Origin: a virus
Lineage: Duplodnaviria; Caudoviricetes
Length of the DNA stretch: 64,000 bases
Strand: one strand, 5' to 3'
Virus record (IMG/VR): IMGVR_UViG_2848581113_000005
Coordinates: 1 to 64,000 of that record
In this document: one piece after another, positions 25,265 to 58,394 of the stretch
Layout of the letters: the number at the start of each line of letters is the position of its first letter
How positions within the stretch are numbered: the first letter of the stretch is position 1
Program-made: the position numbers and the translations under genes
Notes under the pieces: generated by a model
What the model was told of the DNA's origin: nothing
What the model saw: only the letters and a program-made list of their open reading frames with translations
Database searches by the model: none

Positions 25265-27160
25265 TTATCCACATTCATTTTCTGTAACATTCTGCCTCTT
25301 CCACACTTCGTCATACTCAGACACCGGCATATTAGCGATATAGTGATAGGGTTCAGCCTGTTCCTGGTGTAAAAACTGATGGGATTTTTTGTCCAGATAA
25401 AGCCCAATACCGCCCTCCCAGCCATTGCCGTTCCGTTGTTTTTCAATCAGTATCATGGCGGCCGGACCGGCCAGTTTTTCCCGCTCCTTATCCGTTAACA
25501 TTGCCCCGGTTTCCTGCTTTTGCAGTACACGTTCACGAGCTTTATTACGCCAGATAATCATCAGGTTGTCTGTCAAGTCGGTAATCGCCCCAGTGCCTTT
25601 GACATCCATCTTCCCCGTCGGTCTCTCTTCACTGTCACCTTTCCGGCTGTGTGTCACCAAAATCACATGGCTGCGGGTTCTGTTTTTGAAGTCACACAAA
25701 GCATCCACAAAGGCTTTCTGTCCATTGTAATCATCTTCCCCGATACCACATTTCATCAGGCTGTCGATAACAAACAGCTGGATACCATAACGACGCTGCG
25801 CATAGTTAAAGATATCAATCACTCTCGCGGCTTTTGCCGTTCCCGTCAGGCCAAATACCCACAGCCGATCATCGTAAAATTGAAATGCCGAGTCGATTTC
25901 TATCACAGGTGGTCTTTCTGAGCAGGCCGCCTGCTGGGTCAGGCGCTTAAGCAACTGCCCCGGTTTCAGCTCGAAAGAAGCCACACAAGCGCGTATTCCC
26001 TGCCCCATCGCTTCACACAGCAAATGCCCGACCATTTCACTTTTCCCATGTCCGTTCACACCATTAAGCACCGTGAGTTCTGACTCGCGAAAACTGAAAT
26101 GAGGGTTCAACATGTCCCACGGTGTTTTAAACAGACAATGTTCCTGACCGTAGAAAGCATCAATCGTGTCCTGATAAAACTCTCTCGCACTGCACAACTC
26201 TTCCGGATCAAAAAAGATCGCCGTTTCAAGACAACGCACCACGTCATCCTGTGTCATACCCGCCTGTAAGCACGCGTTGATATCCTTGTACGGTAACCTG
26301 ACTAGCCGACAGCGATATTCGCCCAATCGGTTGGCAATCTCTTTTGCGGCTTCCCGTCCCACGTCGTCGTTGTCCATTGAGATCCAAATTTCCTCAAAGC
26401 GATCAAGGTTGTGGTATTCAAACTCAATCCACTGCTGCTTGGCGCCCTTACCGCCCCCGAACGGCACAGAAAGGGCCGGCAAACCGTACTGGTGATAACT
26501 CATGCAGTCGATCTCCCCTTCACACAAAATAACTAGCCGGACGTGATTCGGTATCGCCTGCCAGCCAAACAGACAGGGTTCACACTGAGATTCAGCCATA
26601 ATGACTTTCTTGCCATTGGGACGCTCAGTGCTGATGCGCTTGACTTGCAACAACTCCCCGTTTCGTTTGTAAGGAAACGCAATAGCAGGTAATTCTCTGT
26701 TTTCAGCATGAAACCAGACACAGGCATCACCTATCTCAAACGCTTCCGCCGTCTGGCGGGTGATCCCCCGGCTTTCCAGATAGGCATAGCACACGTTGGG
26801 TTTAAAGACATGTTTCGTCAGCCTGTTGCGATCTGGCCGGACAAAGTTTTTTTTCTGCTTCGCGACGAAGTGGTGATCGTCATCCGCAATCCCCAGAAAC
26901 TGTTTTGCCTCAGCCATGGCTTGATGCAGACTACAGTCACGCACCTGCACCCATAAATCCAGCAGATCACCACCGGTTCCTTCTGCAAAGTCAGACCAGA
27001 CTTTCTTGCCGGACAGATTAATTTTCAGGCTTTTTCCCGCTTCGCCATTGACCGATCCCACTACCCACTCATGCCCTTCCCTACGCCCGTCGGGCAGCAG
27101 GTATTTTGTTACCCGCGCTACGCTACCCCAGAGTTTTTCCGATAGTTCTTTTGGTGTCAT
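25265..27160 (-). CDS. Bifunctional TOPRIM primase / SF4 helicase
   Basis: CEGEIDCMS, DND, GVNGHGKS, VIDSL, VTHSRK, VKGTG. Confidence 0.9.
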   Translation of the reverse strand: MTPKELSEKLWGSVARVTKYLLPDGRREGHEWVVGSVNGEAGKSLKINLSGKKVWSDFAEGTGGDLLDLWVQVRDCSLHQAMAEAKQFLGIADDDHHFVAKQKKNFVRPDRNRLTKHVFKPNVCYAYLESRGITRQTAEAFEIGDACVWFHAENRELPAIAFPYKRNGELLQVKRISTERPNGKKVIMAESQCEPCLFGWQAIPNHVRLVILCEGEIDCMSYHQYGLPALSVPFGGGKGAKQQWIEFEYHNLDRFEEIWISMDNDDVGREAAKEIANRLGEYRCRLVRLPYKDINACLQAGMTQDDVVRCLETAIFFDPEELCSAREFYQDTIDAFYGQEHCLFKTPWDMLNPHFSFRESELTVLNGVNGHGKSEMVGHLLCEAMGQGIRACVASFELKPGQLLKRLTQQAACSERPPVIEIDSAFQFYDDRLWVFGLTGTAKAARVIDIFNYAQRRYGIQLFVIDSLMKCGIGEDDYNGQKAFVDALCDFKNRTRSHVILVTHSRKGDSEERPTGKMDVKGTGAITDLTDNLMIIWRNKARERVLQKQETGAMLTDKEREKLAGPAAMILIEKQRNGNGWEGGIGLYLDKKSHQFLHQEQAEPYHYIANMPVSEYDEVWKRQNVTENECG

Positions 27161-27217
27161 GGTGCTTTTCCCTTTAACTTGCTAAATCCATAGCGAATCG
27201 CCAGCCTGTTATCAACA

Positions 27218-27946
27218 TCATCGTTCGATGTAGTAATAGTTCCCATATTTCTGAATGGGAGAATGATCCGGGCTCTGATTTTGTTGTGGCTCCCGCTGAT
27301 ACGTTTTCGCGTTACGCAACCAATTGTTCAATGCCCGTCCCCAATCCACAAACTGACTGCCTTTGCTGGCATGATGGTCAGCAAATTTTAAAAATTCTTC
27401 CCGCAGGTTCACGCCCAGTTCATTAGCCAGTGCCTGATGCTGTGCTGTTGGGAGAAAAATGTTTGGCAAGGAGTGTTTGTTTTCCGTTTTTTGTGACGAT
27501 TTCTCGCAGACGTCTATAACAGGTTCCTTGACTGGTTCAAAAGAGTGACTGGTTCTGGTGCCATCTGGCGGCATAGGGGGTATATCACCTGACGGCACAG
27601 GGGTGCCAACAGGTGGCATAGGTATGTTTTCTGGCGGCACAGGGGGTATGCTTTTTGGTGGCACAGGGGCAGCCGATAAATTCAGGTAATAGACATTCGA
27701 GGCATTTCCCTTACCGTTATGGTTACCCAGCCGGTTTTCCTTGATAAGCAGCCCCATCTCAATCAGGGCATCAATGTGACTTCTCACCGCACTCTTACTA
27801 CATTCGCAATGATCTGCAATGTGTCGGTATGAAGGCCAGCACTCGCCTTTGTCGTTTGCATTATCCGCTAATTTTATAAGCACCAGTTTTCTCAGGGGGT
27901 TTCCTACCCTGATACTCATTGCCTTCGCCATCAGACTCATACTCAT
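27218..27946 (-). CDS. Replication initiator with N-terminal HTH
   Basis: KLVLIKLADNANDKGECWPSY; internal repeats; upstream of the helicase. Confidence 0.82.
   Translation of the reverse strand: MSMSLMAKAMSIRVGNPLRKLVLIKLADNANDKGECWPSYRHIADHCECSKSAVRSHIDALIEMGLLIKENRLGNHNGKGNASNVYYLNLSAAPVPPKSIPPVPPENIPMPPVGTPVPSGDIPPMPPDGTRTSHSFEPVKEPVIDVCEKSSQKTENKHSLPNIFLPTAQHQALANELGVNLREEFLKFADHHASKGSQFVDWGRALNNWLRNAKTYQREPQQNQSPDHSPIQKYGNYYYIER
27567..27667. repeat. Five iteron-like repeats (GRYGGCAYAGG) within the initiator gene, putative ori
   Basis: Copies at 27567, 27591, 27612, 27633 and 27657. Confidence 0.7.
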
Positions 27947-28038
27947 GCCGTTTCCCCCTTACAGTACGCTAAACAACATCCACATGTTCATATCGGACTC
28001 ATCCAAAACGCCATGCATAATCCACCACCGACGGGAAC

Positions 28039-28275
28039 TTATTCATGGGCTTTGACTTCAGGCGTTGGAAAAACTTTAGGCAGATCAGGACGCAGTTCAT
28101 GAGCCAAGACTTCCCCGTTCGAAAAAACTACGATATCAGGCACCAACGACACCGAAACCCGTTTTTTTCCGTATAACCATGCGCTGATGAGAGATTGTCT
28201 GCACCCAAGAACCTGAGCCAGCTTTGTTTGACTACCTGCAATTTTTATAACTTTTTGTATCACGCTGTTTTTCAT
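28039..28275 (-). CDS. Cro/YdaS-like HTH regulator
   Basis: GSQTKLAQVLGCRQSLISAW...ELRPDL; GGAG RBS; divergent from cI. Confidence 0.85.
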   Translation of the reverse strand: MKNSVIQKVIKIAGSQTKLAQVLGCRQSLISAWLYGKKRVSVSLVPDIVVFSNGEVLAHELRPDLPKVFPTPEVKAHE

Positions 28276-28300
28276 TAATGCCTTCTCCAACACTACAGCA

Positions 28301-28373
28301 ATAATCTTATCACTATAGATCAATGTAAATCACTATTGGTGTATTTGTAAAGGTATCACTTTAGAGATAGAAT
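28301..28373. promoter_or_regulatory. OR-like switch with divergent promoters and three WATCACT operator half-sites
   Basis: Plus strand TTGTAA(28345)-N17-TAGAAT(28368); minus strand TTTACA-N17-GATTAT; operators at 28308, 28328 and 28354. Confidence 0.72.
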
Positions 28374-28416
28374 GAGAAACAGATGTTCCAAGACAGGAGT
28401 GCTTGGGCTATATCAT

Positions 28417-28567
28417 GTATTTCACGTAAATGCGGGAATAACAATCACGGTTCGCCGGTGTCTTTACCTAAGCTCACAGATTCCCCGTAAGTACGGGGAT
28501 AACTGAAATCTGGATGCTGCCGTTGCGGGTATAAGCACAGGTTCCCCGTAAGTACGGGGATAACTCA
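28417..28567 (+). CRISPR. Type I-E-like mini-CRISPR array (3 repeats, 2 spacers of about 32 nt), no cas genes in the window
   Basis: Core TTCCCCGTAAGTACGGGGATAAC at 28481 and 28542, and an 18/23 degenerate copy at 28420. Exact 61-bp period; 7-bp stem with 4-nt loop. Confidence 0.85.
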
Positions 28568-28688
28568 CAGACAGTTAGAAGCCAATAATCCTTTTTAAAT
28601 AGTTTCCTCATCGGTACAGAGATTGAACTGAAGAGATAAATTGATTTGTTCTCTGTAAATACGAAGGTAAACCACTCATGAGGCACTT

Positions 28689-29300
28689 ATGACTCTTGCT
28701 GATAGATTGAAAGAAGCCATGGCAGATAAAGGGCTTACCCAATCCGCTCTTGCAGAAAAAGCCGGCATGGCTCAATCCATGATATGGAAATTACTCTCAG
28801 GAAAAGCAGCCAAAACAGGTAAGCTCGTTGATTTGGCAAAGGCGCTTGGCGTACGCCCGGAATGGCTCAGTGATGGCAGCGGTAGTAAATATCAAACGGG
28901 TGAGGCTGATTTTGCTGTCATGCATGACAACCGTTATGTACCTATAAAAATTTATGAGGAAGAACAAGAAACCCATGAATCATTCATGGTTCCTGCCCTT
29001 TCTGAACTGCAAACCCATTTTGATTCATGCCGGGCTTATCGTATCACCCAGAATACAGGCTGCGCTGAAGCGCCGGAAGGGACTTTAATCATTGTTGATA
29101 AAGATGAAGAAACTGCCAATGATGATTTAGTCTATGCGCGTATAGGCGATCATTATTCGGTTTATCGTTATAAGCAAGGTGGCTCAGTCAGCTTTTTGTC
29201 TGTTGACGACACGCGCATACCCTTGATAACCCTTTCACCTGGCATTGACATAATTGGTGTTATTGTTTATTTATTTCGTGACATGAAACGGAGACGATAA
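28689..29300 (+). CDS. CI-like repressor (XRE HTH + degenerate S24-like C-terminal domain)
   Basis: TLADRLKEAM...TQSALAEKAG...LGVRPEWL; GAGG RBS. Confidence 0.87.
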   Translation: MTLADRLKEAMADKGLTQSALAEKAGMAQSMIWKLLSGKAAKTGKLVDLAKALGVRPEWLSDGSGSKYQTGEADFAVMHDNRYVPIKIYEEEQETHESFMVPALSELQTHFDSCRAYRITQNTGCAEAPEGTLIIVDKDEETANDDLVYARIGDHYSVYRYKQGGSVSFLSVDDTRIPLITLSPGIDIIGVIVYLFRDMKRRR

Positions 29301-29508
29301 TTCTCTCATTCCATATCAACCTTTCACGCATAACCTCCCGGTTTCACTCGAAATACGCCCAAATCTTTCCTCCCTTTACGCCAAGACACTGTTTTTTAAC
29401 ACAGCGTCTTGGGTGTTACTTGACTCATTGCAATTATCAATTCATGAAACAATTTCAATCCTATAAAATTATTTAATATCAATGAGATAATTAAATAAAA
29501 CCAATTTT

Positions 29509-29589
29509 TATCACTATAGGTATGGATTTAACAGAACTTAGGTGATAATGTTAGTCTCATCAAAGTGATAGGAATAATCACCAAAAGAT
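29509..29589. promoter_or_regulatory. OL-like operator cluster
   Basis: TATCACTATAG (29509, same as 28308), GGTGATA, AGTGATA, AATCACC. Confidence 0.62.
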
Positions 29590-29604
29590 TAATAGCGAGG
29601 ATTT

Positions 29605-30024
29605 ATGAGTACCTTTATTTCTGGCACTACCGAGAAACCGACTACAAAACAAAAAAACGCCATAAGCATTAAATATATTATTGCAAATATCGCACAAGCA
29701 GACGTTTTGCACTCAGGAACAACACAGATCCCCTTTTTGGCAGACCCGCGTTTGAATTCATATAATAAGTACAAACACCGGAATAACTGCATGGATACAA
29801 AAAATAAAAAGGAATTCAAATATCATATACTGACGACCTATCTGGCCAGCCAAAAACAGACAAAGCCGGCTCCTTGCTATAAATTAGAAACTATCATCGA
29901 TTACGGTTATGCGCTCTATAAGCGGAGAGGACGGTATATGTATTTAATTGATATCATCCCTATTATTAAAACAAAAAATAAAACACCATTGGCAATAAAA
30001 AACCGTTACACAACAAACCAATAA
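29605..30024 (+). CDS. Hypothetical early protein (doubtful or degenerate)
   Basis: GAGG RBS and ATG; very AT-rich with no recognisable motif. Confidence 0.3.
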   Translation: MSTFISGTTEKPTTKQKNAISIKYIIANIAQADVLHSGTTQIPFLADPRLNSYNKYKHRNNCMDTKNKKEFKYHILTTYLASQKQTKPAPCYKLETIIDYGYALYKRRGRYMYLIDIIPIIKTKNKTPLAIKNRYTTNQ

Positions 30025-30356
30025 AATAAAAAATATAATTTTTATAAGTATAGAAACTTAATTACAGTGACTGCACTGGGGAATATTTCGATATAAATTT
30101 AGACCGGTTACACATAAGAAGAGAATATGAAATATATATTATATGAGAACTACAAAGCTGGAATAATTTTTCATACTGATATGATGAACGAGAACCTGAT
30201 GTGGTGATCTACAACTAAAGATTAAAAAAACTCAAATGGTATTCCTCAGCACTGGACCGGAATACATCATTTTTGTGTGACGGATGTGAAGGTAACCACT
30301 GAAAAAGTTGTCAGGGTGGCTTTGGCAAGCAATTATCAGAAAGGAAGTAGTAAGTC

Positions 30357-30539
30357 ATGGCAACGAGATACATTAGTCTTAAAGAAATGTGCAAATTGGT
30401 AGGGAAGAGCCATCCTACTTTGTGGCGGATGTGGGCAAAGAGAAACGAATTTCCAAAACCATCAAAGACAGAAAGCGGAATTTTTTTGGGCTGGCCTGAA
30501 GAAGTTTATGAAAAGTGGGTTAAAGAGAAAAATCCTTAA
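30357..30539 (+). CDS. AlpA-family excisionase/recombination directionality factor
   Basis: ISLKEMCKLVGKSHPTLWRM...FPKP...GW; adjacent to att. Confidence 0.85.
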   Translation: MATRYISLKEMCKLVGKSHPTLWRMWAKRNEFPKPSKTESGIFLGWPEEVYEKWVKEKNP

Positions 30540-55444: not shown

Positions 55445-56821
55445 CTACCCCAGCATGTCAGGTTCTTTATTTCGGAGTTGATCTTCGATAGCCTCCGGCA
55501 ATTCGTCCTGTGGAACAATGTTGATGCTTTGCAGGTATCGAATGAAATCGACCTTACGCATTTCGCCAGACTGGACAGCAGATAGCAGCGTGGAAATGGC
55601 CGCAGAATCAAGCTGGGCAATGTCATAGACTTTGTTCAACTCAATTGTGGCTCCCCCTGCACCAGCGAATTGAACGCAGAACTGGAGCGCCCGGCTAAAT
55701 GCTTGTTCAACATTGCCGGCACATAGCGATAAAATGGAGTTATCCGTCTGCGCCTCGTTTTGTGCCTGTGTAGCTGTTCGTGCCGATGTGCCGCGCTCCA
55801 CCAGTTTAGCCCCCAGCATGGCCATCTGCTTTTCCCGGCGCTCAGCTACGGTGATTTGGATATTGCGCTCTTCAGGTTGGGCGAATTTCATATCACCGTT
55901 TGGCGGCAGCAATATTCCATTACGTGACCCCACCGTAAAGCCATCAGAAAAATATTTATCCGCCCATACTTCGGTCAGTCCCGTCAAGGCCACCATCGGC
56001 TGCCCTACTGTATGGGCTGATTCTGCAATATCGGCTTCAGCCTGATAATGTTTGATATTCACATAGGCAATATCCGCCAGTGGTGGTGCATCCGGTGTGT
56101 GATCATTGTTCATTGAGCCTATCCATGACCACGGCAATTCAAATAATGGCTGACCTGTTGCATCTTTCAGTTCCACCCAGTCATGCGCAATCAAATTGCC
56201 GTCCTGATACCAGTGTCGTGAATATGCCCGCCCCTCAATGAGCCTCAACTCAATCCAGTGATCAATCAGTTGCAAATCAAAGTTATCCGTGTCCTTCGGC
56301 TCTTTATAATGCACCACCACCAGCGATGTTTTCCCGTTGGTCACCCGCCAGTTAATAATTTCCTTGGCGGTAAATAATCGGATATAGGGGCGTCCTTTTT
56401 CAGCCTCTGATTGAATGCCCGAACCAGAAAAATCACTCAATAAACCTGCTCGCCCGCGCTGTAATACTTGGGATAACGCATCGCGTATCATCTGTGTTAA
56501 TGGCTGGCCTTCACCATCAATATCCGTTTCCAGATACTCAATGCCCCCGGAGATATCAATTTTGACGGGTTTATTGAATGCAATACCCAATAACCCACTC
56601 AGGGTGCGCCCCGTCGCGTTGATAAATGACGCCCGGAGCAAATAACGCTCATAGCGCTTATTACTTGCATCATCCTTCTCTTTCTTATCTGCCGGATGGG
56701 GCAAGTACCTTTCTTTCCGGCTCTTAATCACCCGTTCGCCATCAACACAATCGCCGATCATGTTCCATTCTGACAAAAACTCGGTGTAGGCCGGATGTCT
56801 GTAATCAACGTTTGTGCTCAT
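55445..56821 (-). CDS. Portal protein (DUF4055-like)
   Basis: YLPHP, YLLRASF, PPLADIAYVNIKHYQ; follows terL. Confidence 0.82.
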   Translation of the reverse strand: MSTNVDYRHPAYTEFLSEWNMIGDCVDGERVIKSRKERYLPHPADKKEKDDASNKRYERYLLRASFINATGRTLSGLLGIAFNKPVKIDISGGIEYLETDIDGEGQPLTQMIRDALSQVLQRGRAGLLSDFSGSGIQSEAEKGRPYIRLFTAKEIINWRVTNGKTSLVVVHYKEPKDTDNFDLQLIDHWIELRLIEGRAYSRHWYQDGNLIAHDWVELKDATGQPLFELPWSWIGSMNNDHTPDAPPLADIAYVNIKHYQAEADIAESAHTVGQPMVALTGLTEVWADKYFSDGFTVGSRNGILLPPNGDMKFAQPEERNIQITVAERREKQMAMLGAKLVERGTSARTATQAQNEAQTDNSILSLCAGNVEQAFSRALQFCVQFAGAGGATIELNKVYDIAQLDSAAISTLLSAVQSGEMRKVDFIRYLQSINIVPQDELPEAIEDQLRNKEPDMLG

Positions 56822-56822
56822 G

Positions 56823-58394
56823 TTAGTTCCAGTTGAAATTGAGTGTTTTTGTGAAGCGCAGAGGCTTATGCAAGACGCGATACCGTGTCGCATCCCAATC
56901 GTGATCTTCCTGCTCGGTGTCAACATCATCAGAATTTTTAGTGTCACGAACTAAAACAGGAACGCGACTAATCCAACCCCGGCAATGGTCGAAGACATAG
57001 AACGCAGGTTTTTCTGGCATACCTGATTCTGATTGCTTACCTTCAATGACCGCCTCTAACATGTCAGCGAAGAGGGACGCACCATTGATACGAGAGCCGG
57101 GGTTTTTGTTTGCTTTCACCCATTCGACTTTTTGTGCCTCCATTTTTTGAGCTATGGAATCCTCATCGTCGTTCGGTGTATAAATTGAGTTATCAGCGGG
57201 TCCCTTTATCACCGTCTTACAAATGCCGGGCATAATATTAAGCTGGCCTTGTGTTTTGCCCTCTTTGACTATTTCATCGGGGATCGTTGTCTCTAACCCA
57301 ACTAAGCGCTCATCAATCCACTTAATACCTTTCGCAACATTGGTTGATGACATGCTCAACCCTTTGTTTAACTCATCAGGTGGACAACCGTACCATTCTC
57401 CAATCAAAATTAATGATCCTGCTGGTGGACAAAATGTACGGCCATTAGACAAGGTTGCTTCTGTGCCGTCTGACTCAGCCCACCACAAATTAGAGAAAGG
57501 CTTTGATTCTCCCCAGTCGTGAGAGCGATCAACCGTCCAGCTATCCGGAATTTTGAATGGCTTGATAACGTGGTAATTAGCATTCCACAGATGGTCAAAG
57601 CGTCCGCCACTGGTAACATCCCATGAACCCTCAACCCATGCCTTTCTTCGGTTTGGGTCTTTAATGCCCATCAACGTTGCGATGTACTGCGGGTCTAGGT
57701 AGGGGTTTTCTTTAAATGATCCGTGGATGGCTACGCGAGTTAGCGTGATATCTTCGTCTCGCTCAGTCTGTGGATTGAAGACCTTCTGAGTCTCACGAAT
57801 AACCGTTCCACGCGGCGCAGGTTCGATAAACCGTTTCTTAACCCATGTGTGACCGATGCCAAACGGGTTTGTTGTGCTGAAAGTTTCCAATGGGATCGGT
57901 TTTAACAAAGAGCCGTCTTCAAGTGGGTAATCCTCCGGCCTGAATGATGAGCGGCGACAAGAGAACATGGCTTCGTAAAAGTCGGCTGATTTCTGTTTGG
58001 TTAATTCGTTAAAGCCGATAAAAGGGAATTCCTGCCCGTGATAATCCCAATAATCATCGGCTTCTTTGCCGAACCGAAATAACAACTCTTCACCTGTCGG
58101 CCATACCCAACGTAATTCTGACGCCGAAGCCAGAAAGCGAGCACCATCTTTAAACAGGCGATACATACGCTTTGATTGGGTAATGATGTCAGCGAGGTTT
58201 TTATATTCCGTATCGAATATCACCCCACGCCAGAATGAACCATAGCCAACACCGACATTGCGCCGGAAGCGTGCGAGCTGTGCCGCTGTTTTACCGGGTC
58301 CTCGTGTGCCTTCATACAGAATTTCGTTACACGGGCAACTTAATGATAACGACTGTGAGCCGGGCAGCGGTTTCCAAACCACATTGTAATTCAT
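56823..58394 (-). CDS. Terminase large subunit
   Basis: GTRGPGKT, FNELT, TTNP, HDWG, EDHDWD. Confidence 0.9.
   Translation of the reverse strand: MNYNVVWKPLPGSQSLSLSCPCNEILYEGTRGPGKTAAQLARFRRNVGVGYGSFWRGVIFDTEYKNLADIITQSKRMYRLFKDGARFLASASELRWVWPTGEELLFRFGKEADDYWDYHGQEFPFIGFNELTKQKSADFYEAMFSCRRSSFRPEDYPLEDGSLLKPIPLETFSTTNPFGIGHTWVKKRFIEPAPRGTVIRETQKVFNPQTERDEDITLTRVAIHGSFKENPYLDPQYIATLMGIKDPNRRKAWVEGSWDVTSGGRFDHLWNANYHVIKPFKIPDSWTVDRSHDWGESKPFSNLWWAESDGTEATLSNGRTFCPPAGSLILIGEWYGCPPDELNKGLSMSSTNVAKGIKWIDERLVGLETTIPDEIVKEGKTQGQLNIMPGICKTVIKGPADNSIYTPNDDEDSIAQKMEAQKVEWVKANKNPGSRINGASLFADMLEAVIEGKQSESGMPEKPAFYVFDHCRGWISRVPVLVRDTKNSDDVDTEQEDHDWDATRYRVLHKPLRFTKTLNFNWN

What the first reader, a model, noticed from the sequence alone, without database searches (positions are those of the whole stretch)
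28345..28689. Cas-less type I-E-like mini-CRISPR array in the predicted leader of the cI repressor transcript
Seen: three repeats at an exact 61-bp period (28420, 28481, 28542) with a TCCCCGT-AAGT-ACGGGGA hairpin. The two spacers are about CACGGTTCGCCGGTGTCTTTACCTAAGCTCAC and AATCTGGATGCTGCCGTTGCGGGTATAAGCAC. The array lies between a good sigma70 promoter (TTGTAA-N17-TAGAAT, overlapping the operators) and the cI start, and no cas genes are in the window. Known: 29+32 spacing and this hairpin geometry typify I-E arrays (E. coli GTGTTCCCCGCGCCAGCGGGGATAAACCG); phage mini-arrays and Racr RNAs exist. Inference: lysogeny-coupled crRNAs that borrow host Cas6e/Cascade to exclude competing elements or silence genes. 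Cas6 cleavage of the leader might also tune CI levels, linking host CRISPR status to the lysis-lysogeny switch. I do not know of this placement being described.
Basis: partly seen in the sequence, partly recalled or inferred. Interest (0 to 1): 0.92.

Follow-up and report, generated by a model that had tools for sequence, protein, structure and literature searches.

The report
Prophage mini-CRISPR array before cI gene
A tiny CRISPR array without its own Cas genes sits in the leader of a prophage repressor gene in a Xenorhabdus bacterium, and one of its two spacers was copied from the host's flagellar gene flgF, so it looks like a borrowed or fossil CRISPR piece, not an anti-phage weapon.

Summary
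Window 28414-28564 carries one degenerate and two near-perfect type I-E-like repeats at an exact 61-nt period. They lie between a sigma70-like promoter and a cI-like gene of a lambdoid provirus. The same DNA is in Xenorhabdus szentirmaii DSM 16338.

- Host: no Cas6e, Cas7e or Cas1 and no other such repeat were found in that genome; 21 of 36 Xenorhabdus species genomes have Cas6e.
- Spacer 2: an exact 33-bp capture of the host flagellar gene flgF with an AAG PAM. It is set in the opposite sense to the repeats, so a cI-sense crRNA would meet a non-PAM.
- Spacer 1: no target found anywhere.
- Evolution: the array plus a 105-nt tail is a ~231-bp cassette, present in 4 of 36 species genomes and 3 of 17 IMG/VR relatives. 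Its spacers are frozen. The plus-strand hairpin is kept through G·U changes.
- Expression: RNA-library contigs from two studies run unbroken from the array through cI.

Best reading: a CRISPR-derived cassette transcribed with cI and inert in this host. In Cas-bearing hosts it more likely acts as a crRNA mimic or regulator than as immunity. The closest precedent is the NilD CRISPR RNA of X. nematophila, which I recall but could not read.

The parts
28039..28323 (-). cro-like gene (94 aa), divergent from cI
   Evidence: ORF. Pfam YdaS_toxin/Cro/HTH_3.
28300..28373 (.). Operator and promoter region: plus-strand promoter TTGTAA-17-TAGAAT (28345-28373) and two minus-strand cro-side promoters (28351->28322, 28329->28301)
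   Evidence: The stretch 28324-28373 is 94-100% identical in three intact array-bearing relatives and is shared with array-less relatives.
28374..28413 (+). Native cI leader with a CCAAG...CTTGG hairpin (28388-28406)
   Evidence: Present in array-less relatives too. RNA contigs start at 28391 and 28414.
28414..28442 (+). Repeat 1: degenerate and chimeric. The 5' part is native phage leader; the last 4 nt (TAAC) belong to the cassette
   Evidence: 70% identity to repeat 2. Kept in 7 array-less Xenorhabdus loci and, over 22 nt, in 3 genomes outside the 36 Xenorhabdus handles in the family sample.
28443..28474 (.). Spacer 1 (32 nt; 33 with 28475). Target unknown
   Evidence: No target found. It differs at 2 of 32 positions from the window copy in each of three divergent array-bearing relatives and is identical in L080.
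28475..28503 (+). Repeat 2 (stem 28483-28488/28493-28498, loop AAGT). A Cas6e cut would be expected after 28498, by analogy
   Evidence: The core is identical to host-array repeats of G024 and G021.
28504..28536 (-). Spacer 2: a 33-bp copy of flgF. On the minus strand it reads G plus a 32-nt protospacer that follows AA in flgF, which gives an AAG PAM
   Evidence: The ends of the homology are sharp on both sides in the 23 genomes compared.
28536..28564 (+). Repeat 3 (stem 28544-28549/28554-28559)
28565..28669 (+). 105-nt A+T-rich 'tail' that belongs to the same insertion as the array
   Evidence: Absent from array-less relatives. 96-99% identical in three relatives and 88.5% in a fourth, against 77-87% at cI third codon positions. 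No match to a profile of 12 host CRISPR leaders on either strand.
28670..29300 (+). cI ribosome site and cI-like repressor gene (203 aa, start 28689)
   Evidence: HTH_3 E 2.5e-10; Peptidase_S24 E 5e-6, profile positions 30-116 only.

Best explanation
What it is (shown): a CRISPR-derived cassette of about 231 bp (window 28439-28669), inserted in the 5' leader of the cI repressor gene of a lambdoid Xenorhabdus prophage. It holds two intact repeats of the Xenorhabdus type I-E family, two spacers and a 105-nt tail, and it joins the phage at a repeat-like native hairpin.

Origin (inferred): at least spacer 2 was made by genuine I-E Cas1-Cas2 adaptation in a Cas-bearing Xenorhabdus. It is exactly 33 bp of flgF, starting with the G of an AAG PAM. 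It was integrated in the sense opposite to the repeats, on the side next to the tail.

Expression (supported, not proven): the lysogenic promoter at 28345-28373 reads through the array into cI, so the array is part of the cI mRNA leader in lysogens.

In this host (inferred from absence): X. szentirmaii has no Cas6e, Cas7e, Cas1 or other array. The RNA is therefore not processed and the array is inert as CRISPR; it is only a structured leader.

In Cas-bearing hosts (inference, about 30% likely as the selected role): Cas6e would cut after each hairpin. That would release a leader fragment with no 5' handle, plus a 61-nt crRNA-like RNA whose handle (ATAACTGA) departs from the host's ATAAACCG. The guide of that RNA is the wrong sense for its PAM. 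Such products cannot license interference. This would explain why a spacer against the host's own flgF is tolerated. They would act, if at all, as competitors for Cas6e and Cas7 (like RNA anti-CRISPRs) or as NilD-like regulators. Processing would also give the cI mRNA a new 5' end.

The confidence given covers identity, origin, expression and inertness in this host, not the decoy role.
For: Repeats and period.

Host-type repeat: GTGTTCCCCGTAGGTACGGGGATAAACCG with 32-nt spacers. The cassette's 23-nt core is identical to the array repeats of G024 and G021. The degenerate repeat pattern is found in 27 of 36 genus genomes.

Cassette as an indel: alignment of 13 homologous immunity regions and 17 IMG/VR relatives, 3 of them with an array.

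flgF origin of spacer 2:
- A 33-nt match is listed in at least 28 of 36 genomes.
- It lies in a 251-aa FlgF-like ORF, antisense to the window plus strand.
- The PAM is AAG in 22 of 23 genomes and AGG in 1.
- The window copy differs from the flgF of 6 genomes only at position 2.

In-genus control for PAM side: a G024 host-array spacer matches phage gene 55445-56947 at 29 of 32 positions, with AAG next to the ATAAACCG end of the repeat. The flgF spacer has the opposite arrangement.

Expression: promoter present and no plus-strand terminator. RNA contigs span 28391-29360 (X5, depth 15.5 against about 5-6 on the cro side) and 28414-29387 (X9, depth 25 against 3-5), from two studies.

Plus strand as the RNA strand: the hairpin pairs 6 of 6 in all 8 repeat copies on the plus strand, with G·U pairs in L081/L029 and L030. 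On the minus strand it loses 1-2 pairs in those copies. The 3' flank ATAAC is invariant while the 5' flank varies.

No Cas in the host. No other repeat.

Pressure from I-E on this phage family: 3 of 208 unique host spacer cores match the 82-kb record.

Cassette conservation above cI third codon positions.
Against: - RNA contigs give neither strand nor transcript ends, and DNA carry-over cannot be excluded. In X1 and X3 the whole stretch lies in one long contig.
- No processing data exist for any host.
- PAM register, repeat geometry (5+16+7 nt on the minus strand) and spacer polarity all fit a minus-strand array. Spacer 2 lies next to the tail and occurs only in G001 and G024. So the functional strand is not settled.
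- The two G·U-compatible changes could be chance (1 in 4).
- Carriers are not enriched in Cas-bearing hosts. Of the 4 carrier genomes, 2 have Cas6e, against 21 of 36 overall.
- The tail is conserved more than the repeats. Selection may therefore act on cI control and not on anything CRISPR-related.
- The Cas6e and Cas7e family searches rang only in Thermus among 14 control genomes and not in E. coli, so their first-look sensitivity is imperfect. They did detect 21 Xenorhabdus Cas6e genes at E below 1e-30.
- The G001 assembly may be incomplete.
Confidence: 0.55

Rival explanations
1. Pure fossil. The array was captured or built once and has no selected function in any host. It persists because it sits harmlessly in the cI leader.
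For: The spacers are frozen: the same spacer 1 is in all five lineages (win, L080, L079, L081/L029, L030), with 2 differences from the window copy in the three divergent ones. Spacer 1 has no target. The 5'-handle part is not the host consensus. It is retained in two Cas6e-less genomes, G001 and G026. Array-less relatives are more numerous: 10 of 13 aligned genus loci and 14 of 17 IMG/VR loci.
Against: The plus-strand hairpin is kept in all 8 copies through wobble-compatible changes. The cassette is more conserved than cI third codon positions; the window and L080 are 99-100% identical in the cassette but 94% in cI. In G024/L003 the prophage lost cro, yet promoter, array and cI are kept and covered in RNA libraries.
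Confidence: 0.3
2. First reader's model. crRNAs made during lysogeny use host Cas6e and Cascade to destroy competing phages or plasmids (superinfection exclusion).
For: Virus-borne mini-arrays of one or two spacers with host-like repeats that target related viruses are documented (PMC11656645, passages read). The repeat core is identical to host arrays. The target of spacer 1 might simply be unsampled.
Against: The host here has no Cas. Spacer 1 has no match in any of these searches:
- 50,697 phage records;
- plasmids, chance hits only at E=5;
- 36 genus genomes and 301 family genomes;
- IMG/VR and metagenome contigs by exact 26-mer;
- the provirus itself.
Spacer 2 is a host gene. There is no spacer turnover between lineages. 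The handle differs from the host's at 4 of 8 positions.
Confidence: 0.08
3. Host-gene control. The cI-leader RNA or its Cas6e product is antisense to flgF mRNA and lowers flagellar rod synthesis in lysogens, either through Cascade without cleavage or as a plain antisense RNA. The effects would be on motility, flagellum-dependent secretion, or entry of flagellotropic phages.
For: 33 nt of the plus-strand RNA are complementary to the flgF coding strand. Against the host's own flgF, 30 of 33 pair in G001 and 31 of 33 pair in G024. A plasmid type IV-A spacer that represses host pilN is a precedent (PMC11656645, passage). NilD was proposed to regulate endogenous genes (recalled; paper not read).
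Against: In the plus register the PAM position reads TGA, and position 1 mismatches the host's own flgF in both G001 and G024. Three other array-bearing lineages (G010/L081, G026, L079) lack spacer 2 altogether. The sharp 33-bp ends and AAG PAM point to an adaptation event, not to an evolved antisense RNA.
Confidence: 0.12
4. The functional array is on the minus strand. The tail is its leader, repeat 1 is the degenerate terminal repeat, and its crRNAs carry a flgF guide with a proper AAG PAM. That would be a host-chromosome-targeting weapon, or lethal autoimmunity that forced Cas loss.
For: On the minus strand the unit is a 28-nt repeat, then G, then a 32-nt spacer, with flanks of 5+16+7 nt as in host arrays. 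AAG is found in 22 of 23 flgF genes. The newest spacer is next to the tail and the degenerate repeat is at the far end.
Against: No minus-strand promoter is predicted in 28566-28700. The tail does not match a profile of 12 host leaders. The asymmetric parts of the repeat (GTT...ATAA, loop AAGT) match host repeats in the plus sense. The minus-strand hairpin is damaged in L081/L029 and L030. G024 has a full I-E operon, and its own flgF mismatches only at PAM-distal positions 29 and 31. That would be self-lethal if such a crRNA worked.
Confidence: 0.1
5. Cracr-type array. The spacers partly match the host cas promoter or CreR targets, so that the host's own Cascade shuts off cas expression.
For: Prophage-borne two-spacer I-E 'Cracr arrays' that silence the casA promoter are reported in Salmonella (bioRxiv 10.1101/2024.10.29.618823, sections 7 and 8 read).
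Against: Both spacers, in both registers, score only 18-21 of 32 matches anywhere in the 18-kb cas loci of G024 and G010. Shuffled spacers do as well (mean about 19, maximum 21-23). The spacers here are full length (32 nt), not the 21-24-nt pseudo-spacers described there.
Confidence: 0.03

Closest known systems
NilD CRISPR RNA of Xenorhabdus nematophila (Veesenmeyer et al. 2014, Mol Microbiol 93:1026). I saw only the title in reference lists; the content is recalled.
   Same: As recalled: a free-standing type I-E repeat-spacer-repeat in a Xenorhabdus genome, away from the cas genes. It is expressed as a small RNA that needs Cas6e but not Cas3, and it was proposed to regulate endogenous genes. 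A second Xenorhabdus genome here (G024, also IMG/VR contig L003) carries this same array at 99% identity and has a complete I-E operon.
   Different: The window's host has no Cas6e. I do not know whether the cI-leader position, the prophage context or the flgF match were described there.
Virus-borne mini-CRISPR arrays (reviewed in PMC11656645, passages read; PMC6858448, search listing only)
   Same: One or two spacers, no cas genes, repeats like those of the host's CRISPR system, carried by a virus.
   Different: Those spacers mostly target related viruses. Here one spacer is a host flagellar gene in inverted sense and the other has no target. The repeat ends differ from the host consensus. 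The array lies inside the repressor's mRNA leader.
RNA anti-CRISPRs (Racr, solitary repeat units; PMC10651486, abstract and passages read)
   Same: A phage-encoded repeat mimic directly downstream of a promoter, with an intact Cas6 hairpin. The RNA upstream of the first cut lacks a 5' handle, which is the form shown to build aberrant Cas6-Cas7 complexes.
   Different: This is an array with full-length spacers at exact CRISPR spacing, not a solitary repeat. Inhibition is untested. It is not next to a recognised acr gene (not searched for).
Prophage I-E 'Cracr arrays' (bioRxiv 10.1101/2024.10.29.618823, abstract and sections 7-8 read)
   Same: A two-spacer I-E-like array on a prophage of an enterobacterial host, processed by host Cas6e in that study.
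   Different: No match of either spacer to Xenorhabdus cas loci. Spacers are 32 nt, not shortened.

Membership tests
Type I-E CRISPR array | Direct repeats of about 29 nt separated by about 32-nt spacers (61-nt period) | tested here: met
   three copies, spacing 61 and 61. Host arrays in the genus have the same period.
Type I-E CRISPR array | Repeat homologous to I-E repeats, with the Cas6e stem-loop | tested here: met
   The 23-nt core is identical to host-array repeats of G024 and G021. The plus-strand stem pairs 6 of 6 in 8 of 8 copies.
Type I-E CRISPR array | Repeat 3' end that gives the consensus 8-nt 5' handle (ATAAACCG in Xenorhabdus arrays) | tested here: not met
   The cassette has ATAACTGA and ATAACTCA against ATAAACCG, which is 4 of 8 positions different.
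Type I-E CRISPR array | Spacers derived from protospacers with the subtype's PAM, in the sense set by the repeat | tested here: inconclusive
   Spacer 2 has an AAG PAM and 33-bp ends, but it is inverted relative to the repeats when compared with the host control. Spacer 1 has no protospacer.
Type I-E CRISPR array | Leader and nearby or genomic cas genes | tested here: not met
   No Cas6e, Cas7e or Cas1 in the host genome. No similarity to host leaders.
Virus-borne mini-CRISPR array | One or two spacers on a viral genome with host-like repeats and no cas genes | tested here: met
   The record is classed as a provirus.
Virus-borne mini-CRISPR array | Spacers target related viruses | tested here: not met
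   spacer 1; spacer 2 = host flgF.
Racr (RNA anti-CRISPR) | Solitary repeat mimic that binds Cas6 and inhibits CRISPR-Cas | not testable with these tools
   Hairpin and promoter proximity are present. It is an array, not solitary. Inhibition needs an assay.
Cracr array | Pseudo-spacer with PAM-proximal match to a cas promoter or CreR target | tested here: not met
   best matches in two cas loci equal those of shuffled spacers.
NilD CRISPR RNA | Sequence identity to the published nilD locus; Cas6e-dependent small RNA | not testable with these tools
   The paper is not held. No small-RNA reads were available; only contigs.

The most novel reading that the evidence does not exclude
The prophage has wired a CRISPR mini-array into the leader of its own repressor mRNA. 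In Cas6e-bearing hosts, Cas6e cleavage would both set the 5' end, and so the stability or translation, of the cI message and release crRNA mimics. One mimic is antisense to the flagellar rod gene flgF. Lysogeny, host CRISPR status and flagellar expression would then be coupled. This would also give a concrete target hypothesis (flgF) for the long-unexplained NilD colonisation phenotype, if the G024-type locus is nilD.
Probability: 0.12. Interest if true: 0.8.

Novelty: new variant of a known kind. Interest (0 to 1): 0.55.

Why it matters
Phage-borne mini-arrays and repeat mimics are known, so the kind is not new. This case adds three checkable points.
1. The array is built into the transcript of the lysogeny repressor, so it is expressed exactly when the phage is a prophage.
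2. One spacer is a textbook Cas1-Cas2 capture (33 bp, AAG PAM) of a host housekeeping gene, set in the sense that disarms it. That is a natural example of how a self-spacer can survive.
3. The same cassette sits in both Cas-bearing and Cas-less Xenorhabdus species. This gives a ready comparison for asking whether such arrays act as decoys, regulators or fossils.

If the locus in the second genome is the published nilD, the flgF match and the cI-leader context would bear directly on how NilD works.

Tried and rejected
Rfam: no family matched 27000-30500 at E up to 1.

Phage collection: no blastn match to 27900-29400.

Tail as a CRISPR leader: a profile of 12 host leaders gave no hit in the region on either strand; the best hits lay elsewhere in the window at E 5.7 or worse. 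Plain blastn gave only weak hits, best E 0.017.

Cracr idea: rejected.

Other small repeat clusters in Cas-less genomes (L008, L010, L012, L015, L016, L022, L013): these are remnants of ordinary arrays with host-type flanks, not this cassette.

Self-targeting of the G024 prophage by G024's own array: the only G024 match to window 55540-55690 is the spacer itself.

RNA runs X1 and X3: one long contig each covers the whole stretch, so they say nothing about transcript limits.

Parts of the stretch without RNA-contig cover (28288-28409 in X9; 27983-28043 and 28288-28348 low or zero in X5) are only a weak hint that transcription starts near the promoter.

NilD: three searches and seven papers that cite it gave only reference-list mentions or one general sentence (none). 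One search ('NilD RNA') found an unrelated paper. Supplementary files were not opened.

Full report
OBSERVATION. The repeat finder gives one direct-repeat family of three 30-nt copies starting at 28414, 28475 and 28536. Spacing is exactly 61 and 61 nt, and identity to the reference copy is 70%, 100% and 97%. The 23-nt core occurs twice in the window at up to 3 mismatches, while none of 100 shuffles had any match. Each good copy holds a 6-bp stem with a 4-nt loop. The promoter TTGTAA-17-TAGAAT lies at 28345-28373, opposite two cro-side promoters, and no plus-strand terminator or second promoter is predicted before cI. The neighbouring genes form a lambdoid immunity and replication block:
- a Cro/YdaS-like gene (28039-28323, minus strand);
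- a cI-like gene (28689-29300; HTH_3 plus a partial Peptidase_S24 match);
- an HTH_36 replication protein;
- a Toprim/DnaB-like primase-helicase;
- a Q antiterminator.

SOURCE AND HOST. The window is the first 64 kb of an 82,405-bp IMG/VR provirus record. The same array region, letter for letter over the 1.6 kb shown, lies in Xenorhabdus szentirmaii DSM 16338 (record title given by the tool). One search found it 100% identical over the 371-nt query. That genome (G001) has only these two copies of the repeat at up to 3 mismatches. It has no match to Cas6e (PF08798; TIGR01907), Cas7e (TIGR01869) or Cas1 (PF01867). One caveat applies. Among the 14 control genomes, the Cas6e and Cas7e searches rang only in Thermus, not in E. 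coli, whereas Cas1 rang in 7 including E. coli. The same Cas6e search did find 21 of 36 Xenorhabdus species genomes at E of 1e-30 or better, so a Xenorhabdus-type gene would have been seen.

THE REPEATS ARE OF THE GENUS'S OWN I-E FAMILY. Xenorhabdus arrays read GTGTTCCCCGTAGGTACGGGGATAAACCG plus 32-nt spacers. A degenerate form of the repeat is present in 27 of 36 genomes, many with tens of copies. The cassette's core GTTCCCCGTAAGTACGGGGATAA is identical to the array repeats of G024 and G021. The ends differ. The first two bases are not GT, and the last four read CTGA or CTCA instead of ACCG. A Cas6e product would therefore carry ATAACTGA where host crRNAs carry ATAAACCG.

THE ARRAY IS A CASSETTE IN THE cI LEADER. 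A DNA search of the genus and an alignment of 13 homologous cro-cI regions give this picture:
- Seven loci (L031-L037) have a short leader. After the promoter comes a small hairpin, then a sequence like 'repeat 1', then the cI ribosome site directly.
- Three loci (L038, L039, L041) lack even that sequence.
- Two loci (G010, G026) have 'repeat 1', spacer 1, one repeat and a 105-nt tail.
- The window (= G001) and G024 (= IMG/VR contig L003/L080) have two spacers.

So spacer 1, repeat, spacer 2, repeat and tail (28439-28669) form an indel of about 231 bp. 'Repeat 1' is a chimera of native leader and the cassette's first bases. Its first 22 nt also occur at 95% identity in three genomes of the family sample that are not among the 36 Xenorhabdus handles. 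Among 17 IMG/VR relatives of the cI protein, 3 carry an array (L079 and L081 with one spacer, L080 with two) and 14 do not. Of the four carrier genomes among the 36 species, G024 and G010 have Cas6e, while G001 and G026 do not. G024 has a full cas3-cse1-cse2-cas7-cas5-cas6e-cas1 operon and a 20-repeat array.

SPACER 2 IS HOST flgF. Window 28504-28536 matches one place in at least 28 of the 36 genomes listed. In L043 that place lies in a 251-aa ORF whose translation reads as the flagellar rod protein FlgF. I named it from the sequence, from the flgE-like and flgG-like neighbours, and from recall; no family search was run on it. The window plus strand is antisense to that gene.

I compared 23 genomes:
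- The homology is exactly 33 nt, with mismatching bases on both sides.
- On the flgF coding strand it reads G plus 32 nt and is preceded by AA. That gives an AAG PAM in 22 of 23 genomes and AGG in 1.
- The window copy differs from the flgF of six genomes only at position 2. The G024 copy differs only at position 31.
- Against the carrier's own flgF, the mismatches are at positions 2, 17 and 29 in G001, and at 29 and 31 in G024.

A 33-bp unit beginning with the last PAM base is what I-E adaptation is known to insert (established knowledge for E. coli, recalled). Xenorhabdus arrays also show occasional variation of the last repeat base. An in-genus control confirms the rule. A spacer in G024's own array matches phage gene 55445-56947 of this window at 29 of 32 positions, with AAG next to the ATAAACCG end of the repeat. 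In the cassette the PAM-side end of the flgF spacer abuts the other end of the repeat. The spacer is therefore inverted relative to the repeats.

WHICH STRAND? This is the main unresolved point.

For the minus strand:
- The PAM register fits.
- The repeat geometry (5+16+7 nt around the palindromic stem) fits.
- The extra spacer lies next to the tail.
- The degenerate repeat is at the far end.

For the plus strand:
- The asymmetric parts of the repeat match host repeats in that sense.
- The only good promoter faces that way, and none is predicted on the minus strand in the tail.
- The tail does not resemble 12 host leaders.
- The hairpin pairs 6 of 6 in all 8 repeat copies on the plus strand. 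In L081/L029 and L030, two substitutions give G·U pairs on the plus strand but C·A mismatches on the minus strand.
- The 3' flank ATAAC is invariant while the 5' flank varies.
- A working minus-strand crRNA would be self-lethal in G024.

My reading is that adaptation once used the tail side as a pseudo-leader, while transcription runs the other way. That would make the flgF guide harmless. This reading is an inference.

EXPRESSION. Logan contigs of four RNA libraries were laid on 27800-29600.
- In X5 (sequence identical to the window), one contig spans 28391-29360 at depth 15.5. Contigs on the cro side have depth about 5-6.
- In X9 (another organism and study, carrying the G024-type variants at 28480, 28505 and 28534), one contig spans 28414-29387 at depth 25, against 3-5.
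- Both begin just downstream of the predicted start and end just past cI.
- X1 and X3 give single long contigs and are uninformative.

Contigs carry no strand and cannot prove a single transcript. This is support, not proof, for co-transcription of the array with cI.

TARGETS AND RIVAL FUNCTIONS. Spacer 1 has no match in any of these:
- the phage collection;
- plasmids, where only chance hits at E=5 appeared;
- the 36 genus genomes, other than homologous arrays;
- 301 family genomes, best spacer-part hit E 0.018;
- the 82-kb provirus, at up to 9 mismatches;
- IMG/VR by exact 26-mer, where only L003's own array matched;
- metagenome contigs.

Neither spacer matches the cas loci of G024 or G010 better than shuffled spacers do. 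This argues against the recently described Cracr mechanism.

Spacers do not turn over. Spacer 1 differs at 2 of 32 positions from the window copy in each of L079, L081 and L030, and is identical in L080. The tail is 96-99% identical in three comparisons and 88.5% in the fourth. cI third codon positions are 77-87% identical. The window and L080 are 99-100% identical across the cassette but 94% in cI. Something in the cassette is therefore conserved or recently exchanged, and the tail at least as much as the repeats.

Host I-E systems do target this phage family. Of 208 unique spacer cores taken from 27 array loci, 3 match the record at up to 3 mismatches. An anti-CRISPR role would therefore have a use.

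COMPARISON WITH WHAT IS KNOWN.
- Virus-borne mini-arrays and solitary repeat units: PMC11656645 passages.
- RNA anti-CRISPRs that are cut by Cas6 and build handle-less aberrant complexes: PMC10651486 passages.
- Prophage I-E Cracr arrays: preprint sections 7 and 8.
- A plasmid spacer repressing host pilN.

These all set the frame. A study of X. griffiniae noted a two-spacer array in a phage-related region of strain BMMCB (PMC11566119, section 19). The closest case is NilD of X. nematophila, which I know only from recall. Its paper is not held, and the citing papers gave no details.

This element passes the tests for 'virus-borne mini-array with host-type I-E repeats'. It fails those for a working I-E array: handle, leader, cas genes and spacer sense. 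It also fails the tests for anti-virus targeting and for Cracr.

VERDICT. This is a real CRISPR-derived cassette and an orphan in this host. It is most likely transcribed as part of the cI leader. It is not an anti-phage array by any evidence found. Its role in Cas-bearing hosts is open: a crRNA mimic or decoy at about 30%, a fossil at about 30%, flgF control at about 12%. I score it as a new variant of a known kind, of moderate interest. The nilD comparison is the first thing to do.

Noticed in passing
L003/L080 (IMGVR_UViG_649633108_000004) and G024:C1 about 3319990-3320355; junction corresponds to window about 28336: In this second carrier the cro-like gene and the start of the replication gene are deleted. 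The sequence runs from inside the 242-aa replication ORF straight into the -35 region. Promoter, array and cI are kept, and an RNA contig with this genome's variants covers array plus cI. It looks like a defective prophage that retains the repressor module.
   Followed up: partly
window 55599-55630 (gene 55445-56947, minus strand); record positions about 69459 and about 63176: Host I-E array spacers from three Xenorhabdus genomes (G024, G021, G004) match this provirus at 1-3 mismatches in 29 nt. The G024 one matches 29 of 32 positions with an AAG PAM. G024's own genome has no copy of that protospacer.
   Followed up: partly
window 28565-28669: The 105-nt tail between the last repeat and the cI ribosome site is more conserved between lineages (96-99% in three comparisons) than the repeats (79-86%) or cI third codon positions (77-87%). 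It folds into three small hairpins in the centroid structure. Its function is unknown; it may control cI.
   Followed up: partly
window 28414-28436 and array-less relatives L031-L037; G118, G226, G252: The native leader element in front of cI resembles an I-E repeat in phages that have no array (my own count from the alignment: about 18 of 30 positions). Over 22 nt it is 95% conserved in three genomes that are not among the 36 Xenorhabdus handles. It could be an old solitary repeat or an unrelated regulatory hairpin.
   Followed up: partly
window 27564-27603 and 27630-27669: A 40-nt direct repeat (78% identity, 66 nt apart) lies inside the 242-aa replication gene, in a proline- and glycine-rich coding stretch. 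It may be iteron-like or just a coding repeat.
   Followed up: no
window 28689-29300: The cI-like protein matches Peptidase_S24 only over profile positions 30-116, at E 5e-6. Another first-stage note (e1-6204027) says the catalytic Ser-Lys residues are missing. I did not check the residues.
   Followed up: no
L077 (G024:C1:3575000-3593000) positions about 4480 and about 15312: Solitary repeat-like hairpins flank the cas operon: one between the array and cas3, one after the cas1-cas2 end. The second matches what the X. griffiniae paper calls a conserved repeat-spacer-degenerate-repeat at the end of cas2. They may be regulatory crRNA-like elements.
   Followed up: no
The genome search controls: The Cas6e and Cas7e family searches rang in Thermus thermophilus but not in the E. 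coli control genome, whereas Cas1 did ring there. The first-look filter may miss some true I-E genes.
   Followed up: no
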